Source: Candidatus Giovannonibacteria bacterium RIFCSPHIGHO2_12_FULL_44_22 (lineage in GTDB: Bacteria > Patescibacteriota > Minisyncoccia > UBA11713 > 2-01-FULL-45-33). Taken from it: 64,000 bases of DNA. Below are positions 4,235-53,199 of the stretch, in pieces. Where the stretch lies: positions 210 through 64,209 of the forward strand of contig MFHU01000004.1 in assembly GCA_001778695.1 (NCBI GenBank), in the 5' to 3' direction. The notes below the pieces were generated by a model, which was not told the DNA's origin, searched no databases, and saw only the letters and a list, made by a program, of their open reading frames with translations. How positions within the stretch are numbered: the first letter of the stretch is position 1; the number at the start of each line of letters is the position of its first letter. Position numbers and translations under genes: made by a program.

Positions 4235-4915
4235 ATGACAACAAAACCGAGGAATGGGAAAAATTTTCGGAGATTAATTATCGATACTATAAAGAAGGAT
4301 GAAGACGCTATTCCAGGCAGGGCTGGAGAAACGCCGATTTCGGATCTCGCCTGTATGTTTAAAAAGCTTAAAGATAAAGAGGCTGACGAAGCGATCAAAA
4401 CAATTGTTGACCTCATAAACACGCCGCCTGACCCACTTCTTGTTGCCGATCCAAAAAAATTCTGGTTCAACGTTATGTTTCTCTCACATTATCCTAAAGG
4501 CGAGAAAAATTCACTAAGAGATGCGTTTTTCGCTCGCTTGTTCGGGGAGAGGGCGCTGGATCGTAGTCTATTAATATGGATGTTTAATGGGTATATTGAA
4601 GCCGGAGGAATTTTTGATCAACCCATGCTTCTTGCATTATCGTTTCTTCGGGACGAATCTCCAATCGCATGGCTCAATGCGGCTGCCCGAAGCAGAGAAT
4701 TTGATTTTGTAAAAAATGAAGCCGTTCAGCTACTCCGAGATGGGAAAATTTCTTCTAGGACAGGAAGTGTTTTCATTTACTTTCTCGATTTTTTAAAAAA
4801 ACTTTGGCCGTCCGAAGAAGATTTTTTCAAAGTTGTTGAAGAATTCCACGACGCGGCACAAGATCAGGACACAAAAGAAAAGCTTCAAGGATGGATTGAT
4901 AGGCACAAAAAGTAG
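4235..4915 (+). CDS. Hypothetical protein (226 aa), no recognisable domain
   Basis: Long ORF with identical strong SD (AAGGAGGGG) 7 nt upstream; sits inside the fusA-tuf interval. Confidence 0.6.
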   Translation: MTTKPRNGKNFRRLIIDTIKKDEDAIPGRAGETPISDLACMFKKLKDKEADEAIKTIVDLINTPPDPLLVADPKKFWFNVMFLSHYPKGEKNSLRDAFFARLFGERALDRSLLIWMFNGYIEAGGIFDQPMLLALSFLRDESPIAWLNAAARSREFDFVKNEAVQLLRDGKISSRTGSVFIYFLDFLKKLWPSEEDFFKVVEEFHDAAQDQDTKEKLQGWIDRHKK

Positions 4916-7404: not shown

Positions 7405-8055
7405 ATGAAAGTCAATACATATAATATAAAAGGAGAAAAAGCGGAGACTACGGAATTACCGGAGGGGATTTTTGGAGCGGCGTGGAAACCAGCACTAGTG
7501 AAGCAGGTTTTTGACGGCGAGATGGCAAATAAAAGACGCCCTTGGGCGCATACTAAAACCAGGGGCGAGGTCCGTGGCGGAGGCAGAAAGCCATGGCGGC
7601 AAAAAGGAACCGGACGCGCGAGGCATGGCTCAACCAGATCGCCATTGTGGGTTGGGGGAGGAATTGCTCACGGACCGAGAAATGAAAGGGATTATAGCGT
7701 AAAAATAAATAAAAAAATGAGGCGAGGGGCGCTGTTTTCTTTGCTTTCCAGAAAATTAAAAGACAAAGAAATTATTTTGATTGATAATTTTGAAATGGCT
7801 AAATCCAAAACTAGAGAAGCTTTTAATATTTTTAAAAATTTGAGGACAACGGGAGATATTTATAATTTAGGGATAAAAGGGGGGAAAGCGCTTCTGGCTT
7901 TGGCGAAAGGCGACGCTAAAAGGGCGGTCCATAATCTGCCTTTTGTAAATTTTATAGAGCCGAGAAATTTAAACGTCTCCGCGCTTTTGCAGAATAAATA
8001 TTTAATTTTGGATAAGGCCAGCATTAAAGAATTAGAAAAAACTTATGCCAGGTAG
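7405..8055 (+). CDS. rplD: 50S ribosomal protein L4
   Basis: KPWRQKGTGRARHGS...SPLWVGGG L4 signature. Confidence 0.9.
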   Translation: MKVNTYNIKGEKAETTELPEGIFGAAWKPALVKQVFDGEMANKRRPWAHTKTRGEVRGGGRKPWRQKGTGRARHGSTRSPLWVGGGIAHGPRNERDYSVKINKKMRRGALFSLLSRKLKDKEIILIDNFEMAKSKTREAFNIFKNLRTTGDIYNLGIKGGKALLALAKGDAKRAVHNLPFVNFIEPRNLNVSALLQNKYLILDKASIKELEKTYAR

Positions 8056-8186
8056 TGAAAAAATCGATTGCTTTTCGGTGATATTACAAAATCCAGCAGC
8101 TATCCTGCAGCTTTACATTGGGTCGAAATTTGAGGTTATATTTACAAAAGCATTATCATTAATCGATTTTTCTACTACCTGGTATG
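8044..8186 (+). repeat. Start-codon-associated hairpin element, long form (MITE-like), copy 1
   Basis: TATG|CCAGGTAGTGAAAAAATCGATTG...CAATCGATTTTTCTACTACCTGG|TATG; termini are inverted repeats; 3' ATG = rplW start; L4 stop TAG lies inside left terminus. Confidence 0.85.
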
Positions 8187-11490: not shown

Positions 11491-11635
11491 TATGCCAGGT
11501 AGTGAAAAAATCGATTGCTTTTCAGTGATATTACATAACCCGATAAATATCTGGCAATTTTACAGTTGGTCGAATTTTGCTATGTTTGGTTTATTAAAGC
11601 ATTATCACTAATCGATTTTTCTACTACCTGGTATG
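11491..11635 (+). repeat. Start-codon-associated hairpin element, long form, copy 2
   Basis: ~80% identical to copy 1 across 137 nt; same termini; 3' ATG = rpsQ start. Confidence 0.85.
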
Positions 11636-16768: not shown

Positions 16769-16774
16769 GTGTTT

Positions 16775-17377
16775 ATGATAAATCAACCCTACAATTTTAC
16801 TTTTATTGGACGGTCCGGCTGCGGCAAAGGTGCCCAATCGGAACTTCTTAAAAAATTATTGGAGGGAAAAAATGGCCCCGGCAGCGCGCTTTATATTTAT
16901 ACTGGCGCGCGTTTAAGAGAGCTCGCAGGCCACTCGGAGTTTTTTACAGCGAGATTGTTGAATGAAAAAAGTTTAAAATCCGGTGAGCTAACCCCAAATT
17001 CTTTAGCTATTTGGGCCTACACGACCGAATTTATTCACGGAGTGACGGAAAACAACCACATTATTGTAGACGGTTCTCCGCGCGCGGCGCTGGAAGCGCA
17101 AACGCTGGATGAAATGTTTGATTTTTATGGCAGAGAAAACGTTTTTCATGTTTGGCTGAATGTGAGCGAGGCATGGGCAAACGCGCGCATGAAAGAAAGG
17201 GGGCGATTCGATGACAGTCCTGAGAGCATTAAACACCGTTTCGCTTATTATGAAAGAGAAGTTGTTCCGACAATTGAATTTTACAAAAAAGATAAAAAAC
17301 ACAAGCTTATAGAAATCAATGGCGAGCAGACGATAGAAAAGGTTCACGAAGATATTGTAAAAGCGGCGGGATTATGA
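16775..17377 (+). CDS. adk: Adenylate kinase family protein (atypical P-loop GRSGCGKG, short LID)
   Basis: Position after secY; P-loop NMP kinase fold; ORF-track start 16769 is GTG, ATG at 16775. Confidence 0.65.
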   Translation: MINQPYNFTFIGRSGCGKGAQSELLKKLLEGKNGPGSALYIYTGARLRELAGHSEFFTARLLNEKSLKSGELTPNSLAIWAYTTEFIHGVTENNHIIVDGSPRAALEAQTLDEMFDFYGRENVFHVWLNVSEAWANARMKERGRFDDSPESIKHRFAYYEREVVPTIEFYKKDKKHKLIEINGEQTIEKVHEDIVKAAGL

Positions 17378-17517
17378 CCAGGTAGTGAAAAACTTGATCG
17401 CTTTTTTAAAATTTGTTTGCGATATGGGTTTACTGGGTTATATTGTAGTGGTAGGTGTTTAGCGATAGACTATTGAAAGCAATAAATTTTTAATCAAGTT
17501 TTTTACTACCTGGTATG
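17373..17517 (+). repeat. Start-codon-associated hairpin element, long form, copy 3
   Basis: Same termini (CCAGGTAGTGAAA / TTTTACTACCTGG), different interior; adk stop TGA overlaps left flank; 3' ATG = map start. Confidence 0.8.
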
Positions 17518-18267
17518 ATTATTAAAAATAAAAAAGAGCTGGAAATTTTGCGGGAAGGCGGCAAGAGACTTGCCGCCGTTTTAAACAAGGCAGCCAATAA
17601 CGCGATAGAAGGCGTCACGACCAGGGAGTTGAATGATTTGGCGGAAAGTTTAATTTTAAAATCCGGAGGCGCGCCGTCTTTTAAAGGATATAAAGCGCAG
17701 GGAGCTCCGCATCCTTACCCGGATGCGCTTTGTGTTTCAATAAACGAAGAGGTGGTGCATGGGTTGCCGGCTGGTCGCAAATTAAAAAATGGCGATATCG
17801 TTGGGTTGGACATAGGTATGTGGTATGAAGGCCTATGCACTGATACGGCTCTTACTGTTTTGGTTGGCGGAGGGAAAAATAAATTAATTGATGCCACAAA
17901 AAAATCTCTGGAGCTGGGGATTGCCGAAGTCCGCGCCGGCGCGCATGCCGGCGATATTGGTTTTGCGATTCAAAAATATTTGAAGAGTGAGGGTTTTGGC
18001 GTAGTGCGAGAATTGGTTGGGCATGGCGTTGGAAGAGCGGTTCACGAAGACCCGGAAATCCCAAATTGGGGAAAACGCGGCGTCGGACCGGAACTGGTTG
18101 AAAATATGATTATTGCTTTAGAGCCTATGGCCACTGAAGGCGGATATAAAGTAAAACTTTCCAAAGACGGTTGGACATGGCTCACTTGCGACGGCTCCCG
18201 CTCCGCGCATTTTGAGCATACTTTGGTGGTGACAAAAGGCGGGGCGGAGGTATTGACTCTACTTTAG
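17515..18267 (+). CDS. map: Type I methionine aminopeptidase
   Basis: Pita-bread fold metal ligands (D..D..H..E..E), 250 aa. Confidence 0.95.
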   Translation: MIIKNKKELEILREGGKRLAAVLNKAANNAIEGVTTRELNDLAESLILKSGGAPSFKGYKAQGAPHPYPDALCVSINEEVVHGLPAGRKLKNGDIVGLDIGMWYEGLCTDTALTVLVGGGKNKLIDATKKSLELGIAEVRAGAHAGDIGFAIQKYLKSEGFGVVRELVGHGVGRAVHEDPEIPNWGKRGVGPELVENMIIALEPMATEGGYKVKLSKDGWTWLTCDGSRSAHFEHTLVVTKGGAEVLTLL

Positions 18268-18286
18268 ATTTTGCTAGTATTACCTT

Positions 18287-18505
18287 ATGAGGAAAATTGA
18301 TCTACAAAACGTGATTTGGAAAGAGGGCAAATATTATGTTGCCCAATGTTTGAATGTTGATGTTTCTAGTTTCGGCAAAACCAAAAAGGACGCTTTAGCC
18401 AACCTGCAAGAAGCCCTGGAACTTTATTTTGACGGAGCTAAAATATCAGATTTACTGAAAGTGGAGCAACCGACTATCGTGAAGCGCCAACTTCAGTATG
18501 CCTAA
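18287..18505 (+). CDS. hicB: HicB-family antitoxin (UPF0150)
   Basis: KYYVAQCLNVDVSSFGKTKKDALANLQEALELYFDG. Confidence 0.6.
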   Translation: MRKIDLQNVIWKEGKYYVAQCLNVDVSSFGKTKKDALANLQEALELYFDGAKISDLLKVEQPTIVKRQLQYA

Positions 18506-18707
18506 ATTTTATTCTTCGGATTATATCATCAAGGTCCTTCGCAGGAAGGGCTTTGTTTTTGTTTCTCAAAAAGGAAGCCATATGAAATTTCAAAAAGCAA
18601 GTTTGCCATTGACTGTGATCGTTCCGGCTAACCGTAAAGAAATTCCTATTGGCACTTTCCGCTCGATTTTACGGCAATCAAAATTAAAAGATGAAGATTT
18701 TAAATAA
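18498..18707 (+). CDS. hicA: HicA-family mRNA interferase toxin
   Basis: VLRRKGFVFVSQKGSHMKF...LTVIVPANRKEIPIGTFRSILRQ; 8-nt overlap with hicB. Confidence 0.65.
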   Translation: MPKFYSSDYIIKVLRRKGFVFVSQKGSHMKFQKASLPLTVIVPANRKEIPIGTFRSILRQSKLKDEDFK

Positions 18708-18721
18708 TTTCCTCGACAGCT

Positions 18722-18818
18722 GGACATGAGTAACTCGCGACGGCTCCCGCTCCGCCAATTTTGAACATACAGTTGTGGTAACAAAAACCGGCGCGGAAGT
18801 TTTGACTATGCTAAAATA
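18722..18818 (+). pseudogene. Diverged duplicate of the map 3' end (pseudo-fragment)
   Basis: ~80% nt identity to 18168..18267; in-frame TGA; brackets the hicBA cassette. Confidence 0.7.
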
Positions 18819-18823
18819 AAAGC

Positions 18824-19561
18824 ATGCCCAAACCGGATATATATTTGTCTGTTATAGTTCCTGCATATAATGAAGCGGAGAAACTGCCTAAAACTTTAAA
18901 GCGTTTTCAAGAGTATCTGTTTCAACAGGCCTACTCCTATGAAATTATTGTCGTAAACGACGGCGCGAGGGATAATACCGCCGATGTCGTAAGAAATATG
19001 GAGCGAGATATTAAAAATTTGCGTTTTATTGACCGCAAAAAAAATATGGGCAAGGGCTACACGGTGCGCGAGGGGATGCTAGCGGCTTACGGCAGAATTC
19101 GGCTTTTTGCCGACGCCGATAATGCCACCGATATTTCACATTTTGATAAAATGCGCCCGTTTTTTGACAAGGGTTTTGACGCGGTGATTTGCTCAAGAGA
19201 CCCCAAAGACGCCCTAGGCGCCAAACAAGCTGTAGCGCAAGCGTGGTGGAAGCGCGCGCTCGGCAATATGGGCAATTTATATATTCAATGGATGGCGGTT
19301 CCGGGGATTTGGGACACTCAATGCGGTTTTAAAGCGTTTCGCGATTACGCCGCCGAAAAAATTTTTTCCGCGACAAAAATAAACAGATGGGCTTTTGACG
19401 TGGAAGTTCTGGCACTGGCCAAGCGCTTCGGATATAAAATTGGGATTATTCCGGCAAACTGGGTTAATGACCCGCGCTCTAGCGTAAAATTTATGGCGTA
19501 TTTTCACACCCTTTGGGAGGTTTTTAAAATCAGGAGGTTGTTAAATAAATTAAAAATTTAA
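18824..19561 (+). CDS. Family 2 glycosyltransferase (Dpm1/ArnC-like)
   Basis: VIVPAYNE...IIVVNDGARDNT...DAD motif. Confidence 0.8.
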   Translation: MPKPDIYLSVIVPAYNEAEKLPKTLKRFQEYLFQQAYSYEIIVVNDGARDNTADVVRNMERDIKNLRFIDRKKNMGKGYTVREGMLAAYGRIRLFADADNATDISHFDKMRPFFDKGFDAVICSRDPKDALGAKQAVAQAWWKRALGNMGNLYIQWMAVPGIWDTQCGFKAFRDYAAEKIFSATKINRWAFDVEVLALAKRFGYKIGIIPANWVNDPRSSVKFMAYFHTLWEVFKIRRLLNKLKI

Positions 19562-19562
19562 A

Positions 19563-20561
19563 ATGAAAAGCACCATAGAATTTCGCAAAGATATTGTTTC
19601 GGGAGACTGGGTTTTGATTTCTACGGATATTCAAAAAAAACCGGTATTTTTTAAAAAAGTGGAAAGCAAGCCCCTTCCAAAATCAAAATGCCCTTTTGAC
19701 GGAATCCAAAAATCAAAACAAGAGAAAGTTTTGCTGTGGATGCCAAAGCCCGGCGGGAAGGATTTGAAAGACTGGTGGATTCAGATTTTGCCGAATAAAT
19801 ATCCGGTCGTGGCAAGCTCCAGAATTTGTCCACCGCTTACAAAATACGGCATACATGAGAAAAAAATCGGCGTCGGCTTTCAAGAGGTAATTGTGACACG
19901 GTCGCACGAAAAACATTTTGGGCTGATGGCCAAAAATGAAATTGAGTTGGTTATTGAGGCATATCAGTCAAGATTTCAGGCGCTTTCCGCCGAACCTTGC
20001 GTTGATTATATTTTAATAATTCATAATCACGGCTCGCGCGCTGGCGCCACAGTGCCCCACCCGCATTCGCAGATTTTCGCAATTCCCATAATCCCGCCTG
20101 ATGTTAAAAGAAGTTTGGAGGGTTCCAGAAAATATTTTCATGAAAATAAAAAATGCGTCCACTGCGCTATTTTAAAAGATGAATTAAAAGAAAAAGAGCG
20201 CGTTATTTATCAAAACAAGCTTTTTGTTGTTTTGGCTCCATACGCTTCGCGGGTGGCGTATGAAGTCAGAATTTTTCCTAAACTTCATGAGTCGCGCTTT
20301 GAGGCGATTGATCAGGCGCAAAGGAATGATTTAGCCGATGCCTTAAAAATAATACTCTCTAAAATCTTTAAAAAATTAAAAAATCCGGATTACAATATGT
20401 TTATCCACACCGCGCCTCCCAAGGAGCGCCACGCAGAGCATTATCATTGGCATTTGGAAATTTTGCCAAGAATTGCCACTTGGGGCGGGTTGGAATTGGG
20501 CGCGGGGATTGATGTTGTAAAAATCTCTCCCGAGGAAACCGCTAAATTTTTCAGACAATGA
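19563..20561 (+). CDS. galT: Galactose-1-phosphate uridylyltransferase (HIT superfamily)
   Basis: HPHSQIFAIP HxHxQ motif, two HIT-like halves, ~330 aa. Confidence 0.75.
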   Translation: MKSTIEFRKDIVSGDWVLISTDIQKKPVFFKKVESKPLPKSKCPFDGIQKSKQEKVLLWMPKPGGKDLKDWWIQILPNKYPVVASSRICPPLTKYGIHEKKIGVGFQEVIVTRSHEKHFGLMAKNEIELVIEAYQSRFQALSAEPCVDYILIIHNHGSRAGATVPHPHSQIFAIPIIPPDVKRSLEGSRKYFHENKKCVHCAILKDELKEKERVIYQNKLFVVLAPYASRVAYEVRIFPKLHESRFEAIDQAQRNDLADALKIILSKIFKKLKNPDYNMFIHTAPPKERHAEHYHWHLEILPRIATWGGLELGAGIDVVKISPEETAKFFRQ

Positions 20562-24577: not shown

Positions 24578-25027
24578 ATGCCAAAAAAAGAATCTGAAAA
24601 ACTGATTGTCTATACCGACGGGGGCTCGCGGGGGAATCCGGGGCCGGCGGCGCTTGGGGTGGTAATTTCAGACCAAAAGGGAAATTTAATCAAAGAATAT
24701 GGCGAAGCGCTGGGGGTAAAAACAAATAATGAAGCAGAATACGCGGCTGTAATTTTTGCGCTAAAAAAAATCAAAGCGCTATATGGGAAAGAAAAAACCA
24801 AAAAAATGCATATTGATATGAAAATGGACAGTGAGTTTGTGATGAAGCAATTAAACGGCGAATATAAAATTGAAGAAGAAAGAATGTTCCCGCTTTTTGT
24901 CGCCGTGTGGAATTTGAAGATGGATTTTGGTAAAGTTACTTTCAGCCATGTTCCCCGTGAAAAAAATCGCGCCGCCGACAGATTGGTGAACGCGGCGCTA
25001 GACCGGGAGCAGGGCAAATTGTGGTAA
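24578..25027 (+). CDS. rnhA: Ribonuclease HI
   Basis: YTDGGSRGNPGPAA...NNEAEY...D in SHVPREKNRAADRL. Confidence 0.85.
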   Translation: MPKKESEKLIVYTDGGSRGNPGPAALGVVISDQKGNLIKEYGEALGVKTNNEAEYAAVIFALKKIKALYGKEKTKKMHIDMKMDSEFVMKQLNGEYKIEEERMFPLFVAVWNLKMDFGKVTFSHVPREKNRAADRLVNAALDREQGKLW

Positions 25028-26379
25028 CAAAATATACACCTTATTTACTCACAGCGTTTTTAGGCGGAGTACTTCTGCGCTCTTTTTTCAATATTCCGCA
25101 AAATTGGATTTTGGGAATATTAGGATTGGCGGGCGGAGTTTTATTTATTTTTTATTTTTTCAAACTTGGCGGCAGGTTTTTAATTTTTAGTCTTGTATTT
25201 TTGGGTTTTCTTCTTGGTATGCTCCGCTTTTCTATTTTTGAAAATAAAATCGCGGCCGATAAGCTTCACAATTATTACGGTCAAACTTTGATTTTGCGGG
25301 GCAAAGTTTTATCAAGCGTTCTTAAGCCAAACAGTTCCCGAATCACTTTAGAAACCGATTTGGGTAGGATTTTAATAATAAAAAGAATTTATCCGGAATA
25401 TAAATACGGAGATGTTTTGGAAATTTCCGGAAAAGTGGCCGAACCCGAAAATTACGCCGGGTTTGACACGGCTAAATTTCTGGCAAAACAGCAAATTTAT
25501 TCCCAGATGATTTTCCCTGAAATTAAAAAGACCGGCCACTCTCCCAATAAATTTTTAAACTCTCTATTTTTTATAAAAAATAAATTTGAAGAAAGCTTAA
25601 AAAGTATTTTGCCGGAGCCAGAGGCCTCACTAGCTTCCGGAATGCTTTTGGGGATTGAAGGCGTGATTCCCCAGGGTATTTTGGATAATTTTAGGAAAGC
25701 CGGCGTGATTCATATTTTGGTGCTTTCCGGATACAATATTACTGTTGTTGGCGCCTTTATTATGGCTTTTTTGGGGTTTATTTTTCCGAATTTTTTGGCA
25801 TGGACCGGCTCTCTTTTTGGTATCTTGGTTTTTACTTTAATGACCGGCGGGGAGCCGGCGGCAATCAGAGCCGCGATTATGGCCGTAATCGGCCTTTTGG
25901 CCATGCGCACGGGCAGAAGCTACCTCGCGATACTCGGCCTTTTGTGGGCGGCATTTTTCATGGCTTTTTGGAATCCGATGTATGTCCGGTTTGATAGAGG
26001 TTTCCAGCTTTCTTTTTTGGCGACTTTGGGGCTGATACTTTTTTCTTCCTGGTTTATGAAAAAACTTTGGTTTTTGCCAAAATTTTTAGGTATTCGCGAA
26101 TCAGCCGCTTCCACGCTTTCCGCCCAAATTTTTGTGACGCCCGTGCTTCTTTCTTGGGGCAATCTGGTTTCTTATCTAAGTCCATTGGCTAATGTCGTGA
26201 TAGTCGGCTTTGTGCCGACTATCATGTTTTTTAGTTTCGCCGCCGGCATTTTGGGATTTTTCTCAAATTTTTTGGGGACAACGCTGGCTTTGGTCCCTTA
26301 TTTTTTGATAAAATTTCAAATTTTGGCCGCCCAGTTTTTGGCGAGTTTTGACTGGGCCGTGATTTATTTTAATTTTTGA
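25021..26379 (+). CDS. comEC: ComEC/Rec2 competence channel, membrane domain only
   Basis: Polytopic; DUF4131-like N-term + Competence domain; GTG start overlapping rnhA stop. Confidence 0.75.
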   Translation: MVTKYTPYLLTAFLGGVLLRSFFNIPQNWILGILGLAGGVLFIFYFFKLGGRFLIFSLVFLGFLLGMLRFSIFENKIAADKLHNYYGQTLILRGKVLSSVLKPNSSRITLETDLGRILIIKRIYPEYKYGDVLEISGKVAEPENYAGFDTAKFLAKQQIYSQMIFPEIKKTGHSPNKFLNSLFFIKNKFEESLKSILPEPEASLASGMLLGIEGVIPQGILDNFRKAGVIHILVLSGYNITVVGAFIMAFLGFIFPNFLAWTGSLFGILVFTLMTGGEPAAIRAAIMAVIGLLAMRTGRSYLAILGLLWAAFFMAFWNPMYVRFDRGFQLSFLATLGLILFSSWFMKKLWFLPKFLGIRESAASTLSAQIFVTPVLLSWGNLVSYLSPLANVVIVGFVPTIMFFSFAAGILGFFSNFLGTTLALVPYFLIKFQILAAQFLASFDWAVIYFNF

Positions 26380-26381
26380 AT

Positions 26382-27266
26382 ATGAAAAATTTTTTAAAAC
26401 TTCATAAAAATAAAATTTTATCCGGCGGGCTGTTGTTTTTAGCGGCGCTCATGGCGCTTACCGGATTATATGTTTGGAATCTGGAGCATAAGCCCGAACT
26501 CCAAATTTATTTTTTTGACGTAGGGCAGGGGGATTCCATTTTTATTGAAGCCAAAGATGGCACGCAGATTTTAATTGACGGCGGGCCCACGAATAAAATT
26601 CTTCCGCTTTTGGGCGGCGTTATGCCCTTTTACGACCATTCCATAGATGTCGTTATTTTAACCCACCCGCATGCCGATCATGTTTCTGGACTTATGGAGG
26701 TTTTAAAAAGATATAATGTAGAGATGATTTTTGAAAGCGGAGCAAGTTACCACACGGCCGAAGCCAAAGAATTTGAAAGTATGGTTATTGAAAAAAATAT
26801 AAAAAAAATAATTATAGATAGGCCAGTTAAACTTTCTTTTTTTAAAAACGCCGCGCTGAATTTTTTATTTCCTGACAAATCTTTTGAGGGGCAAGTTTTA
26901 AAAAATGTTCATGATTCGGCTTTGATAAGTGAGCTGGATTTTGAAGGCAAAAAGATTTTGTTTATGTCGGACGCCGAAAAAAATTTGGAGCGCTATTTGC
27001 TTCAAAAAGGGGCTTTGGAGGACATTGATGTTTTGAAAGTTGGCCATCACGGCTCCAAAACTTCCAGCACCGCCGATTTTCTTAAAATCGTAAAACCGGA
27101 ATACGCCGTTATTTCAGCTAGCGACAGAAATCGCTACGGGCATCCGCATCCCGATGTTCTTTCTCGCCTTTCCGCCATAGGAGCCCAAATTTTCCGCACG
27201 GATATTAACGGCACCATTATTTTAAATATCAACAACGGCCGGCTGACTTTGCAAAAAGAAAAATAA
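26382..27266 (+). CDS. MBL-fold metallo-hydrolase (ComEC C-terminal beta-lactamase-like domain as separate ORF)
   Basis: ILTHPHADHVSGL; N-terminal TM; ORF-track start 26376 is TTG overlapping the comEC stop. Confidence 0.75.
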   Translation: MKNFLKLHKNKILSGGLLFLAALMALTGLYVWNLEHKPELQIYFFDVGQGDSIFIEAKDGTQILIDGGPTNKILPLLGGVMPFYDHSIDVVILTHPHADHVSGLMEVLKRYNVEMIFESGASYHTAEAKEFESMVIEKNIKKIIIDRPVKLSFFKNAALNFLFPDKSFEGQVLKNVHDSALISELDFEGKKILFMSDAEKNLERYLLQKGALEDIDVLKVGHHGSKTSSTADFLKIVKPEYAVISASDRNRYGHPHPDVLSRLSAIGAQIFRTDINGTIILNINNGRLTLQKEK

Positions 27267-44939: not shown

Positions 44940-45283
44940 GGGGATGATCGGCCTCGAGGGAGAGCGATTGATCATGCGTTCAGGCACCCCGCCAGGGCGG
45001 GGTTAAATCTCACCCCTGGGAAATCAATAAGTGCAAACTTATTTTCTAAAGTAACCGCTGCTTTTGGCGCTTTGCGTCCAATGCAGTTGGCAACTTCTTA
45101 CGCTTAACCGCGTAGGCATCCGTCCTTGATTCTCGCTAAAGGGTCGCGGGTGTTATAAGCGAGAAAAACTCTATCAAGAGTATAACTTGAAAAAATTTTT
45201 CCCGAGAGCAATCGAGGGAATAAGCCTGTAAACCGTAGATCATGATTTTTTCCGACCCGGGTTCAATTCCCGGCATCTCCACA
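44940..45283 (+). ncRNA. ssrA: tmRNA (SsrA)
   Basis: 5' GGGGAUG pairs with 3' CAUCUCC acceptor stem; T-arm CCGGGTTCAATTCCCGG; follows smpB; candidate tag ORF ...ATSYA*. Confidence 0.7.
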
Positions 45284-45312
45284 TCTTGGGTTTTTTAAGC
45301 TAAAGTTAACTT

Positions 45313-52923: not shown

Positions 52924-53199
52924 ATGAAGTTTTATTATGTTTATCTTTTAGAAAGCATTAAGAATGGCAATTTATATATTGGCTATACTAAGGATTTACT
53001 TAGGCGTATTAAAGAACATAATCAGGGTTTAAATTTTTCTACTAAACCTTATCGTCCTTGGCGTTTAATTTATTACGAGGCATGTCTTAACGAGAAGGAC
53101 GCGGAGAGAAGAGAAAAATATTTAAAGACAAATCAAGACGCCAGGCTCATTAAGCGCAGAATAAAAGAATATCTTTATTTAAAGCGCATTCAGGAGTAA
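52924..53199 (+). CDS. GIY-YIG domain protein (YhbQ/UPF0213-like), paralog of 3799..4062
   Basis: YVYLLESIKNGNLYIGYTKDLLRRIKEHN. Confidence 0.7.
   Translation: MKFYYVYLLESIKNGNLYIGYTKDLLRRIKEHNQGLNFSTKPYRPWRLIYYEACLNEKDAERREKYLKTNQDARLIKRRIKEYLYLKRIQE

What the first reader, a model, noticed from the sequence alone, without database searches (positions are those of the whole stretch)
18287..18818. hicBA toxin-antitoxin cassette inserted at map 3' end, bracketed by a duplicated map terminus
A HicB-like antitoxin (18287-18505) and a HicA toxin with the GSH motif (18498-18707) sit immediately after map. After them, 18722-18818 repeats the last ~95 nt of map at ~80% identity with an in-frame TGA, ending exactly where the GT2 gene begins. 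This looks like a cassette that integrated into, or recombined with, the map 3' end. It also coincides with the point where the ribosomal super-operon terminates prematurely: infA, rpmJ, rpsM, rpsK, rpsD, rpoA and rplQ are absent downstream.
Basis: seen in the sequence. Interest (0 to 1): 0.55.

Follow-up and report, generated by a model that had tools for sequence, protein, structure and literature searches.

The report
hicBA cassette between duplicated map ends
A small toxin–antitoxin gene pair sits behind the essential map gene, with a leftover second copy of map's last 100 bases after it; several related groundwater bacteria share this layout, so it is an old, recombining insertion hot spot rather than a recent event in this genome.

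Summary
Then 18715-18819 repeats map's last ~100 nt: 78/98 identical, against at most 48/98 in shuffles, with an in-frame TGA. It ends 4 nt before the GT2 gene.

- Loss of infA…rplQ after map is ancestral to all sampled Patescibacteria and is unrelated to hicBA.
- map–hicBA–fragment is not specific to this genome. Eight Giovannonibacteria lineages carry hicBA there and six of them keep fragments. The hicBA-free relatives L065 and L016 nest among them.
- Some relatives carry arrays of small genes, each headed by another map-3' copy that supplies a promoter.

Two further findings stand out.
- The fragments diverge like coding sequence, with changes at third codon positions and reading frames kept. 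In some genomes they are mosaic-identical to that genome's own map. hicBA alleles also disagree with host phylogeny. Together this means recurrent recombination, not passive decay.
- The same hicBA family is flanked by direct repeats of local DNA at other loci too (7/61 loci against 1/176 controls).

No recombinase was found within any repeat-bounded unit. The best reading is a single-crossover insertion at map's 3' end. The cassette was then kept by toxin–antitoxin addiction and reshuffled by homologous recombination.

The parts
17515..18267 (+). map, type I methionine aminopeptidase; complete, 250 aa
   Evidence: Pfam Peptidase_M24 5.3e-42. NCBIfam TIGR00500 met_pdase_I 261 bits against a cut-off of 171.
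18166..18263 (+). Left direct repeat: the functional 3' end of map (codons ~217-249)
   Evidence: the repeat finder D1 and alignment A1. Its closest relatives are the map 3' ends of the sister species L015 and L095, at 87%.
18253..18280 (+). Predicted hicBA promoter. The -35 TTGACT (18253-18258) lies inside map's last codons. A 16-nt spacer contains the map stop codon. Then comes TG-extended -10 TAGTAT (18275-18280), then 6 nt, then the hicB ATG. This implies a leaderless mRNA.
   Evidence: Consensus scan hit with TG. The same architecture recurs at every map-3' copy in relatives. This is inference from consensus only.
18287..18505 (+). hicB-like antitoxin: 72 aa, minimal, with no DNA-binding domain
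   Evidence: Pfam DUF7387 at threshold. There were 2783 homologues, and the named ones are 'HicB family antitoxin'. It lies upstream of and overlapping hicA in ~80 loci. AF2 pLDDT is 65 with a beta-beta-beta-beta-alpha-beta topology. Only weak hits to HicB structures 3k6q and 9svk_B.
18498..18707 (+). hicA toxin, 69 aa, with the GSH motif
   Evidence: Pfam HicA_toxin 2.7e-16. PDB 1whz 1.6e-6, 6g26_E HicA 2.7e-5.
18715..18819 (+). Right direct repeat: a displaced, 5'-truncated map 3' end. It is a pseudogene fragment with an in-frame TGA at 18727-18729 and its own TAA at 18817-18819.
   Evidence: Together with GT2 it is collinear with the map-GT2 junction of L065.
18809..18826 (+). Predicted GT2 promoter and start: TG-extended -10 TGCTAAAAT (18809-17), 6 nt, ATG (18824). 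It overlaps the last codons of the map fragment.
   Evidence: In L015, L016, L018, L065, L095, L097, L099 and L192, TGCTAAAAT plus 6 nt plus ATG precedes GT2; L024, L025, L019, L022 and L041 have diverged variants. Inference from consensus.
18824..19561 (+). GT2 glycosyltransferase, first gene of the conserved GT2-galT-tpiA-pgk block that ancestrally follows map
   Evidence: Pfam Glycos_transf_2 2.7e-24. Synteny.

Best explanation
This is a type II toxin-antitoxin module occupying a cassette-insertion hot spot at the 3' end of map. HicB is a minimal antitoxin and HicA is an RNA-cleaving toxin. The two genes are translationally coupled through an 8-nt overlap and appear to be transcribed from a promoter that straddles the map stop codon.

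Most likely origin (inferred): one crossover inside the last ~100 nt of map, between the chromosome and incoming DNA that carried a map 3' end next to hicBA. This is Campbell-type or att-like integration. It leaves a complete map upstream. It pushes the previous 3' end downstream, where it stays joined to the original GT2 promoter and gene.

Timing and spread: the event lies at or near the base of a Giovannonibacteria subclade, not in this genome. Since then the locus has been reshaped by homologous recombination in three ways:
- gene conversion between the fragment and functional map ends;
- exchange of hicBA alleles between lineages;
- addition and deletion of further small cassettes, each headed by a map-3' copy that supplies a promoter.

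Persistence (inferred): recombination between the two repeats would delete exactly hicBA. Loss of the labile antitoxin should kill such segregants, which would explain why the cassette persists.

Shown here: the anatomy, its distribution, the recombination signatures and the absence of a recombinase gene. Inferred: the insertion mechanism, promoter use and addiction.
For: Anatomy and significance of the repeat.

The fragment belongs to the old map-GT2 junction:
- Window 18715-20554 is collinear with L065 map3'+GT2.

Distribution:
- hicBA lies right after map in 8 lineages; the short contig L103 shows the same map-hicBA order. A map fragment begins within ~15 nt of the hicA stop in 6 of the 8.
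- No map-3' duplicate occurs in any hicBA-free locus among the 106 map loci searched, apart from one weak reverse-strand match 7 kb upstream in L050.

Arrays:
- L107, L066, L099 and L192 carry 2-3 map-3' copies or remnants, each followed by a -10 box and a different small ORF.

The fragments are not passively decaying duplicates:
- Differences fall at codon position 3. win_dup against own map gives [6,1,11]. Positional orthologues win_dup against L066_f2 give [5,1,16], P=1.5e-11 against neutrality.
- Reading frames are intact in L066_f2 and L097_f.

Gene conversion:
- The L192 fragment is identical to its own map over ~50 nt.
- L107_f1 is identical over 41 nt.
- L099_f is 92% identical to its own map.

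Horizontal exchange of the cassette at the same locus:
- Window against L103: hicB/hicA pS 0.31/0.25, while map is 0.62 and adk 0.67.
- L107 has a close host (SecY 86%) but hicB is only 72% identical, pS 0.68.

No integrase or transposase:
- Pfam found none among the 13 unassigned cassette or flanking ORFs scanned in relatives; the window's own unit holds only hicB and hicA.
- No inverted repeats flank the unit.
- No hits in viral contigs.

Competence gene comEC lies 6 kb downstream.

Analogy: toxin-antitoxin cassettes stabilise or regulate chromosomal integron arrays (PMC13108822).
Against: - No recombinase, circular intermediate or empty-site allele was seen. About 44 population contigs are all identical.
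- In the window the two repeats are only 80% identical and show no sign of recent conversion. Which copy is native cannot be decided: the identity matrix is flat at 75-87%.
- Near-perfect 254-nt repeats at another hicBA locus (L125) fit an in-situ target duplication better than a foreign surrogate end.
- Gene conversion alone could mimic 'coding-like' fragments without any re-integration.
- Promoters and leaderless starts are consensus matches only.
- Toxicity and addiction are untested.
- The phylogeny is neighbour-joining on four proteins.
Confidence: 0.55

Rival explanations
1. Remnant of a classical integrase-driven island. An element with a tyrosine or serine recombinase used map's 3' end as attB and carried a surrogate map end in attP. 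It later lost everything except hicBA, leaving attL and attR as the two repeats.
For: - The architecture is the textbook one for islands in gene 3' ends: the gene is kept intact and the displaced end lies downstream.
- Tandem arrays of displaced ends resemble serial integrations.
- Several independent fragments begin at nearly the same codon, G-W-T-W (GCTGGACATGG): window, L066_f2, L107_f1 and L107_f2.
- The two copies differ as two functional alleles would.
Against: - No integrase lies in or beside the arrays in any of the eight lineages; Pfam found none among the 13 unassigned ORFs scanned.
- The units between repeats are only 0.4-1 kb.
- Nothing was found in viral contigs.
- The same hicBA family has repeats of quite different local sequences and lengths (38-254 nt) at other loci. 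A site-specific enzyme would not produce that.
Confidence: 0.15
2. In-situ duplication at an illegitimate insertion. Candidates are staggered breaks, template switching, or homology-facilitated illegitimate recombination after DNA uptake. The two copies were identical at first and have simply diverged since; the fragment is junk.
For: - L125 has 253/254-identical repeats around hicBA, and other loci have 38-124-nt repeats.
- Enrichment over controls is 7/61 against 1/176, Fisher p=3.6e-4.
- L015 and L095 have lost all or nearly all of the fragment, so it is dispensable.
- The window copy carries a nonsense codon and changes at otherwise invariant residues (G to S, H to N).
- Homology-facilitated illegitimate recombination is documented in transformable bacteria (PMC3410848, PMC8116780).
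Against: - Neutral decay is rejected for the fragments. Codon positions 1 and 2 are far too conserved between positional orthologues (P about 1e-11 to 1e-14).
- Within the window the split is [6,1,11], chi-square p=0.016.
- Fragments survive in lineages whose synonymous sites are saturated (pS 0.67-0.78).
- This model needs added gene conversion to work, at which point it merges with the main explanation.
Confidence: 0.2
3. The map-3' copy is retained because it works as a portable promoter or regulatory unit for whatever gene follows it. On this view the 'fragment' is functional DNA rather than a scar.
For: - Every copy ends in TTGAC(N), then 16-18 nt, then TGC-TAnnnT, followed by a gene.
- In L095 the fragment is trimmed to ~12 nt that keep exactly the -35 TTGACA in front of ORF69.
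Against: - In the window a ~12-nt deletion puts TTGACT only 4 nt from the -10. Only the extended -10 can serve GT2 there.
- L015 drives GT2 with no fragment at all.
- Promoter function would constrain about 40 nt, not codon positions 1 and 2 over 100 nt.
Confidence: 0.1

Closest known systems
HicAB type II toxin-antitoxin modules (Makarova, Grishin & Koonin 2006; reviewed in PMC11594946; both cited from the reference list of PMC13385816)
   Same: - A small HicA with a GSH histidine.
- An upstream, overlapping small antitoxin gene in hicB-hicA order. That order is also reported among ANME-1 hic loci (PMC13385816).
- Wide horizontal spread.
   Different: - HicB here is only 72 aa and has no RHH/HTH DNA-binding domain.
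- It reaches Pfam DUF7387 rather than the HicB models.
- How it is autoregulated, if at all, is unknown.
Genomic islands or integrative elements inserted in the 3' end of tRNA, tmRNA or protein genes, with attL/attR direct repeats (general knowledge)
   Same: - The target gene is kept intact by a replacement 3' end.
- The old end is displaced downstream as a direct repeat.
- Tandem arrays occur in some genomes.
   Different: - No integrase.
- The cargo is only two small genes.
- The repeats are ~100 nt at 80% identity, without a recognisable short identical core at a fixed edge.
- The arrangement is shared across species and is homogenised by gene conversion.
Chromosomal integron cassette arrays stabilised by toxin-antitoxin cassettes (PMC13108822)
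   Same: - An array of small, mostly unknown-function genes separated by a repeated ~100-nt element.
- A toxin-antitoxin pair embedded in the array that would penalise deletions.
   Different: - No IntI integrase, attI or attC hairpins.
- The repeat is a copy of a housekeeping gene's coding end and carries a promoter.
- Arrays are short, 1-4 units.
Insertion-duplication (Campbell-type) integration and homology-facilitated illegitimate recombination during natural transformation (PMC3410848, PMC8116780)
   Same: - Needs only host recombination and one homologous segment.
- Gives direct repeats of that segment around the insert.
- comEC is present in the window.
   Different: This is known mainly from laboratory constructs and model organisms. 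It has not been described as a recurrent natural route for toxin-antitoxin cassettes, and competence of these bacteria is unproven.

Membership tests
HicA toxin (Pfam PF07927) | Significant match to the HicA profile over its full length | tested here: met
   2.7e-16, 59.8 bits against a cut-off of 27; profile positions 4-58 of 58.
HicA toxin (Pfam PF07927) | Conserved catalytic histidine in a G-S/G-H motif | tested here: met
   QKGSHMKF in the translation. It aligns with KGGH of 1whz.
HicA toxin (Pfam PF07927) | Sequence relationship to solved HicA structures (dsRBD-like fold) | tested here: met
   1whz 1.6e-6, 6g26_E 2.7e-5, 4c26 7e-5, 9svk_A 5e-4. The fold itself was not modelled.
HicA toxin (Pfam PF07927) | RNase toxicity neutralised by the partner | not testable with these tools
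   Needs expression experiments.
HicB antitoxin | Match to a HicB profile (PF15919 HicB_lk_antitox or UPF0150) | tested here: inconclusive
   Only DUF7387 passes, at 28.0 against 27.9, in 46/46 homologues. UPF0150 is weak in 15/46 and HicB_lk_antitox weak in 4/46. NCBIfam gives no hit. NCBI names the homologues HicB family.
HicB antitoxin | Partial RNase-H-like fold (beta-beta-beta-alpha-beta) as in solved HicB | tested here: inconclusive
   The AF2 model has mean pLDDT 65 and topology 4 beta, alpha, beta. The most probable Foldseek match by its probability score is 3k6q (HicB-like antitoxin): probability 0.72, E 0.36, TM 0.49; the top hit by E-value (0.29) is an unrelated Drosha-DGCR8 chain, and no match has E<=0.001. 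The profile hit to 9svk_B HicB has E 0.21.
HicB antitoxin | Encoded next to hicA in one operon | tested here: met
   8-nt overlap in the window. hicA follows or overlaps hicB in 78 of the 80 related loci.
HicB antitoxin | C-terminal RHH or HTH DNA-binding domain (present in many HicB, not all) | tested here: not met
   The protein is 72 aa with a single domain, and no such Pfam hit was found.
Integrase-mediated island at a gene 3' end | Direct repeats (attL/attR) with the target gene restored | tested here: met
Integrase-mediated island at a gene 3' end | Recombinase gene within or beside the element | tested here: not met
   None lies between the repeats in the window. Pfam found none among the 13 unassigned ORFs scanned in and beside the relatives' arrays.
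Integrase-mediated island at a gene 3' end | Empty site in close relatives | tested here: inconclusive
   L065 has map directly followed by GT2. However, it is nested among hicBA-bearing lineages, and no empty allele exists in the population.
Transposon or IS insertion | Terminal inverted repeats and a short, identical target-site duplication | tested here: not met
   No inverted repeats bound the unit. The duplication is 98 nt at 80% identity.
Integron cassette array | IntI integrase, attI, and attC hairpin sites between cassettes | tested here: not met
   The repeats are coding-derived direct repeats. No integrase was found. No Rfam or structured element was detected apart from tmRNA.

The most novel reading that the evidence does not exclude
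The 3' end of map in Giovannonibacteria is a recombinase-independent gene-capture platform. Copies of map's last ~100 nt, which contain a promoter, would act both as portable promoters and as the homology that lets small cassettes enter, leave and move between genomes. Movement would rely on host homologous recombination and DNA uptake. hicBA would be the resident addiction module that holds the array in place. The same duplication-generating route would explain the direct repeats found around this hicBA family at unrelated loci (secA 3' end, L125 and others). In effect it would be an integron-like system without an integrase in ultra-small bacteria.
Probability: 0.2. Interest if true: 0.8.

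Novelty: new variant of a known kind. Interest (0 to 1): 0.5.

Why it matters
Taken alone, a toxin–antitoxin pair behind map is ordinary. The locus matters for other reasons.
- It shows how genomes of ultra-small CPR bacteria, which have few recognisable mobile-element enzymes, can still gain, keep and exchange small genes at a fixed site next to an essential gene.
- A displaced gene end can stay 'coding-like' for long periods through gene conversion. This is a caution for pseudogene dating.
- A hicBA family tends to be bracketed by long duplications of local DNA. That hints at an insertion route that has not been characterised.
- Annotators should not read the break of the ribosomal super-operon after map as caused by the cassette.

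Tried and rejected
- **Assembly artefact.** Rejected: more than 20 independent contigs are identical.
- **Chance similarity.** Rejected by shuffles.
- **Causal link to operon truncation.** Rejected.
- **Recent insertion with an ancestral empty site in sister genomes.** Rejected by distribution and tree.
- **Translation of the fragment** (readthrough or frameshift from hicA, or its own start). Rejected. Relative to hicA, the window copy is in frame +1. L066 is in frame 0 behind two stop codons. L097 is in frame +2 and L107 in frame +1. There is no conserved start codon.
- **A conserved antisense ORF over the fragment.** Rejected: the frames differ between genomes.
- **Deciding which repeat is 'native' from similarity to relatives.** Uninformative: all values lie at 75-87%.
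- **Phage origin.** No hit in viral contigs.
- **Known RNA family in the region or in the repeats of other loci.** None found.
- **HicB fold assignment.** The model has low confidence and the structure matches are not significant.
- **L108 'repeat'.** It turned out to be two paralogous genes, not an insertion scar.
Full report
**1. What is in the window**

Reading 17300-19300 and listing ORFs gives the gene order below.

| Feature | Coordinates | Note |
|---|---|---|
| adk | 16769-17377 | |
| spacer | 17378-17514 | 138 nt |
| map | 17515-18267 | |
| 72-aa ORF (hicB-like) | 18287-18505 | |
| 69-aa ORF (hicA) | 18498-18707 | overlaps the previous ORF by 8 nt |
| non-coding | 18708-18823 | 116 nt |
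| GT2 glycosyltransferase | 18824-19561 | |
| galT-like | 19563-20561 | |
| tpiA | from 20572 | |
| pgk | from 21327 | |

Family assignments for GT2, galT-like, tpiA and pgk come from Pfam.

- The 69-aa protein is a clear HicA. Pfam gives 2.7e-16. Solved HicA chains 1whz and 6g26 match at 1e-6 to 1e-5. It carries the motif QKGSHMKF.
- The 72-aa protein only just reaches Pfam DUF7387. It has no NCBIfam or PDB sequence hit.
- It belongs to a family of more than 2700 proteins, all about 72 aa. Sources call these HicB-family antitoxins. In 78 of the 80 related loci fetched with it, hicA follows or overlaps it.
- A structure model was of low confidence (pLDDT 65). Its topology fits a HicB N-domain, but structure matches to HicB-like chains were not significant.
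- I therefore call it a minimal HicB-like antitoxin without a DNA-binding domain. Membership rests mainly on gene linkage.

**2. The repeat**

- 18166-18263 and 18715-18812 are a 98-nt ungapped direct repeat with 78 identities.
- The next-best match of this 98-mer, in the window or in 100 shuffled windows, is 44-48 identities.
- In map's frame the copy reads [33 protein letters not shown]. It is a 5'-truncated MetAP C-terminus with one nonsense codon (18727-18729).
- It ends 4 nt before the GT2 start.
- More than 20 contigs from different samples and assemblers are identical here. The repeat is real.

**3. Source and relatives**

- The window matches GCA_001778615.1, a Candidatus Giovannonibacteria genome from Rifle groundwater.
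- A scan of species-representative genomes with the map protein gave 80 loci.
- tblastn shows that map followed by GT2-galT-tpiA-pgk is the common order in this part of the Paceibacteria. Usually a ~130-aa ruvX/yqgF gene lies between map and GT2.
- As a positive control, E. coli InfA, S13 and S11 find infA-rpsM-rpsK right after map in 25 non-Patescibacteria loci. They find nothing after map in any Patescibacteria locus, and nothing in the window.
- The 'premature end' of the super-operon is therefore ancestral and has nothing to do with hicBA.

**4. The arrangement is shared, not private**

HicB homologues at 97, 96, 94, 81, 81, 78 and 72% identity all sit directly after map. These belong to L015, L066/L104, L095/96, L097/98, L192, L099-102 and L107 respectively. 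The short contig L103, with a 99%-identical HicB, shows the same map-hicBA order.

| Lineage | State of the map-3' fragment after hicA |
|---|---|
| window, L066/L104, L097, L099, L107, L192 | fragment begins within ~15 nt of the hicA stop |
| L095 | only ~12 nt remain (GGTATTGACAAC) |
| L015 | none |

- Among 106 loci with a full map gene, map-3' duplicates occur only in hicBA-bearing lineages, apart from one weak reverse-strand match 7 kb upstream in L050.
- About 70 more distant members of the same hicBA family (60-76% identity) lie in other contexts without map fragments.
- A neighbour-joining tree of SecY, map, S5 and L15 places the two hicBA-free relatives inside the smallest clade holding all hicBA-bearing lineages, in 100/100 bootstraps. 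These are L065 (map directly followed by GT2) and L016 (a different small ORF).
- The outgroups L018 and L017 carry ruvX at the site.
- ruvX was not detected in the window or in any locus of that clade.
- The simplest reading is one gain near the base of the clade followed by later losses. L065 is then a secondary 'empty site', as recombination between the two repeats would produce.

**5. The site is a small cassette array**

Gene order in the relatives:

| Locus | Order after map |
|---|---|
| L107 | ORF69, hicBA, fragment + ORF73, …, fragment + DUF5701 gene |
| L066 | 220 nt, fragment, hicBA, fragment + DUF5701 gene, GT2 |
| L099 | hicBA, fragment + ORF69, remnant + ORF72, GT2 |
| L192 | ORF103, remnant + ORF112, hicBA, fragment + ORF105, GT2 |

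- Each map end or copy carries TTGAC(N) in the Leu-Thr codons. Then come 16-18 nt that include the stop codon, then TGC-TAnnnT.
- In the window this motif precedes hicB: TTGACT, 16 nt, TAGTAT, 6 nt, ATG. The consensus scan reported it with its TG.
- In the closer relatives with GT2 at this site (L015, L016, L018, L065, L095, L097, L099, L192), GT2 is preceded by TGCTAAAAT, 6 nt, ATG; L024, L025, L019, L022 and L041 carry diverged variants.
- This suggests leaderless transcripts, with each copy serving as a promoter unit. That is inference from consensus only.
- No array ORF scanned with Pfam is a recombinase.

**6. How the fragments evolve**

If the fragments were relics of one old event, they should be unrecognisable between lineages whose synonymous sites are saturated (pS 0.67-0.78). 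They are not.

- They keep MetAP reading frames. Examples are L066_f2 [36 protein letters not shown] and L097_f [28 protein letters not shown].
- Their differences, both from functional map ends and from each other, fall on third codon positions:

| Comparison | Differences at codon positions 1, 2, 3 | Test |
|---|---|---|
| window copy vs own map | 6, 1, 11 | chi-square p=0.016 |
| window copy vs its positional orthologue in L066 | 5, 1, 16 | P=1.5e-11 for so few changes at positions 1+2 under neutrality |

- Translation of the fragments is unlikely. Their frame relative to hicA varies and no start codon is conserved.
- Direct signs of recombination exist instead.
  - The L192 fragment is identical to its own map end over ~50 nt.
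  - L107_f1 is identical over 41 nt and then diverges.
  - L099_f is 92% identical to its own map.
- hicBA alleles are discordant with their hosts.
  - Window against L103 has hicB/hicA pS of 0.31/0.25, while map is 0.62 and adk 0.67 (51% aa identity).
  - L107 has a closer host (SecY 86%) but a 72%-identical HicB.
- The locus is therefore repeatedly reshaped by gene conversion and by exchange between lineages.
- In the window itself the two copies are at the plateau (80-81%, as far from each other as from any relative). No recent conversion is visible there, and I cannot tell which copy is 'native'.

**7. A wider pattern**

- I aligned the 260 nt upstream of hicB against the 1500 nt downstream of hicA in all fetched loci.
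- Seven of 61 non-map loci of this hicBA family have significant direct repeats of local sequence, against 1 of 176 pseudo-cassette controls placed elsewhere in the same loci (Fisher p=3.6e-4).
- Examples:
  - L125: 254 nt, 253/254 identical, covering the end of the upstream gene plus the spacer.
  - L193-195: the last 77 nt of secA, repeated 508 nt after hicA. The differences are mostly synonymous and the CPCG…KYKHCHGK* motif is kept.
  - L133: 79 nt.
  - L112: 80 nt.
- One case (L108) is simply two paralogous genes.
- This was only partly followed up. It suggests that the way this cassette inserts tends to duplicate tens to hundreds of bases of the target.

**8. Mechanism**

Shown:
- The anatomy.
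- An old and shared position.
- Arrays of map-3' copies.
- Gene conversion.
- Allele exchange.
- No recombinase in cis.
- No terminal inverted repeats.
- No phage copies.
- comEC 6 kb downstream.

Inferred:
- Insertion happened by a single crossover within map's last ~100 nt, between the chromosome and DNA carrying a map end next to hicBA (Campbell-type).
- That geometry yields exactly a complete map, then hicBA, then a 5'-truncated old end still joined to the GT2 promoter.
- Persistence follows because deletion between the repeats removes precisely the toxin-antitoxin pair. This parallels toxin-antitoxin cassettes in chromosomal integrons (PMC13108822).

Rivals, scored in the rival section:
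- A decayed integrase-bearing island.
- An in-situ target duplication at an illegitimate insertion, followed by conversion.
- Retention of the fragment as a promoter.

The near-perfect L125 repeats keep the second rival alive. The absence of any recombinase weakens the first. The window's broken -35/-10 spacing and L015's lack of a fragment weaken the third.

**9. Verdict**

- The element is a known kind of gene pair in a known kind of geometry: a displaced gene 3' end.
- Three aspects look new:
  - there is no recombinase;
  - the layout is conserved and homogenised across species, with small arrays;
  - it belongs to a hicBA family that is enriched for long flanking duplications.
- That is worth a focused follow-up, but on its own it is not a categorically new system.

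Noticed in passing
window 8045-8185, 11492-11634, 17377-17514: There are three copies of a ~138-nt MITE-like element with 22-25-nt terminal inverted repeats (CCAGGTAGTGAAAAA…TTTTTCTACTACCTGG). They lie in spacers of the ribosomal-protein operon. Each ends …CCTGGT|ATG; for the 8045 and 17377 copies this ATG is the start codon of the next gene (8184 and map 17515). The adk-map copy appears to sit where relatives L015/L095 have adk abutting or overlapping map with no spacer (coordinates only), and (T)ATGA is duplicated. The RNA fold is -45.4 kcal/mol, z = -7.1. No Rfam family matches.
   Followed up: partly
L125 3656-3909 / 4454-4707; L193 3261-3337 / 4433-4509; L133, L112, L132, L176: The same hicBA family is flanked by direct repeats of local upstream DNA at unrelated loci. 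Lengths range from 38 to 254 nt and one pair is 253/254 identical. One case duplicates the secA 3' end with mostly synonymous differences. Enrichment is 7/61 against 1/176 controls.
   Followed up: partly
L020 1640-2165; L028 7050-7229 and 8825-9338: Other toxin-antitoxin modules occupy the same spot in other Paceibacteria. L020 has a Phd/YefM + ParE pair right after map. L028 has an unrelated HicB/HicA pair after map and an extra HicA between secY and adk. None has a detectable map duplication.
   Followed up: partly
L103 (aligned opposite window ~17870 and ~17990): A relative's map gene carries a 42-nt palindromic insertion (…ACTAAGTTTAGGTCACTTACTGACCTAAACTTAGT…) and a 21-nt insertion, apparently within the coding region. 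Its hicB is 99% identical to the window's, although map is only 73% identical.
   Followed up: no
window 1-64000; L015, L095, L097, L099, L104, L107, L192, L065, L016: ruvX/yqgF lies between map and GT2 in outgroups (L018, L019, L021, L023-25). It gives no tblastn hit in the 64-kb window or in any locus of the hicBA-bearing clade. Its new location, or its loss, was not determined.
   Followed up: partly
window 24578-27266: An RNase H/RVT_3-like gene, comEC (Competence, DUF4131) and a metallo-beta-lactamase-fold gene lie 6-8 kb downstream. comEC is relevant to DNA-uptake-based models.
   Followed up: no
window 44940-45284: A tmRNA gene with tag peptide ANLFSKVTAAFGALRPMQLATSYA (ARAGORN and Rfam RF00023, 85 bits). 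It is ordinary, and no island was noticed next to it.
   Followed up: no
window vs L015/L095, 19563-22352: Divergence is uneven among neighbouring genes. galT is 93% identical to L095 but 77% to L015. pgk is ~71% identical to both, while SecY is 95%. This suggests mosaic recombination along the region.
   Followed up: no
window 52924-53199: A stand-alone 91-aa GIY-YIG nuclease-domain ORF lies directly after recO.
   Followed up: no
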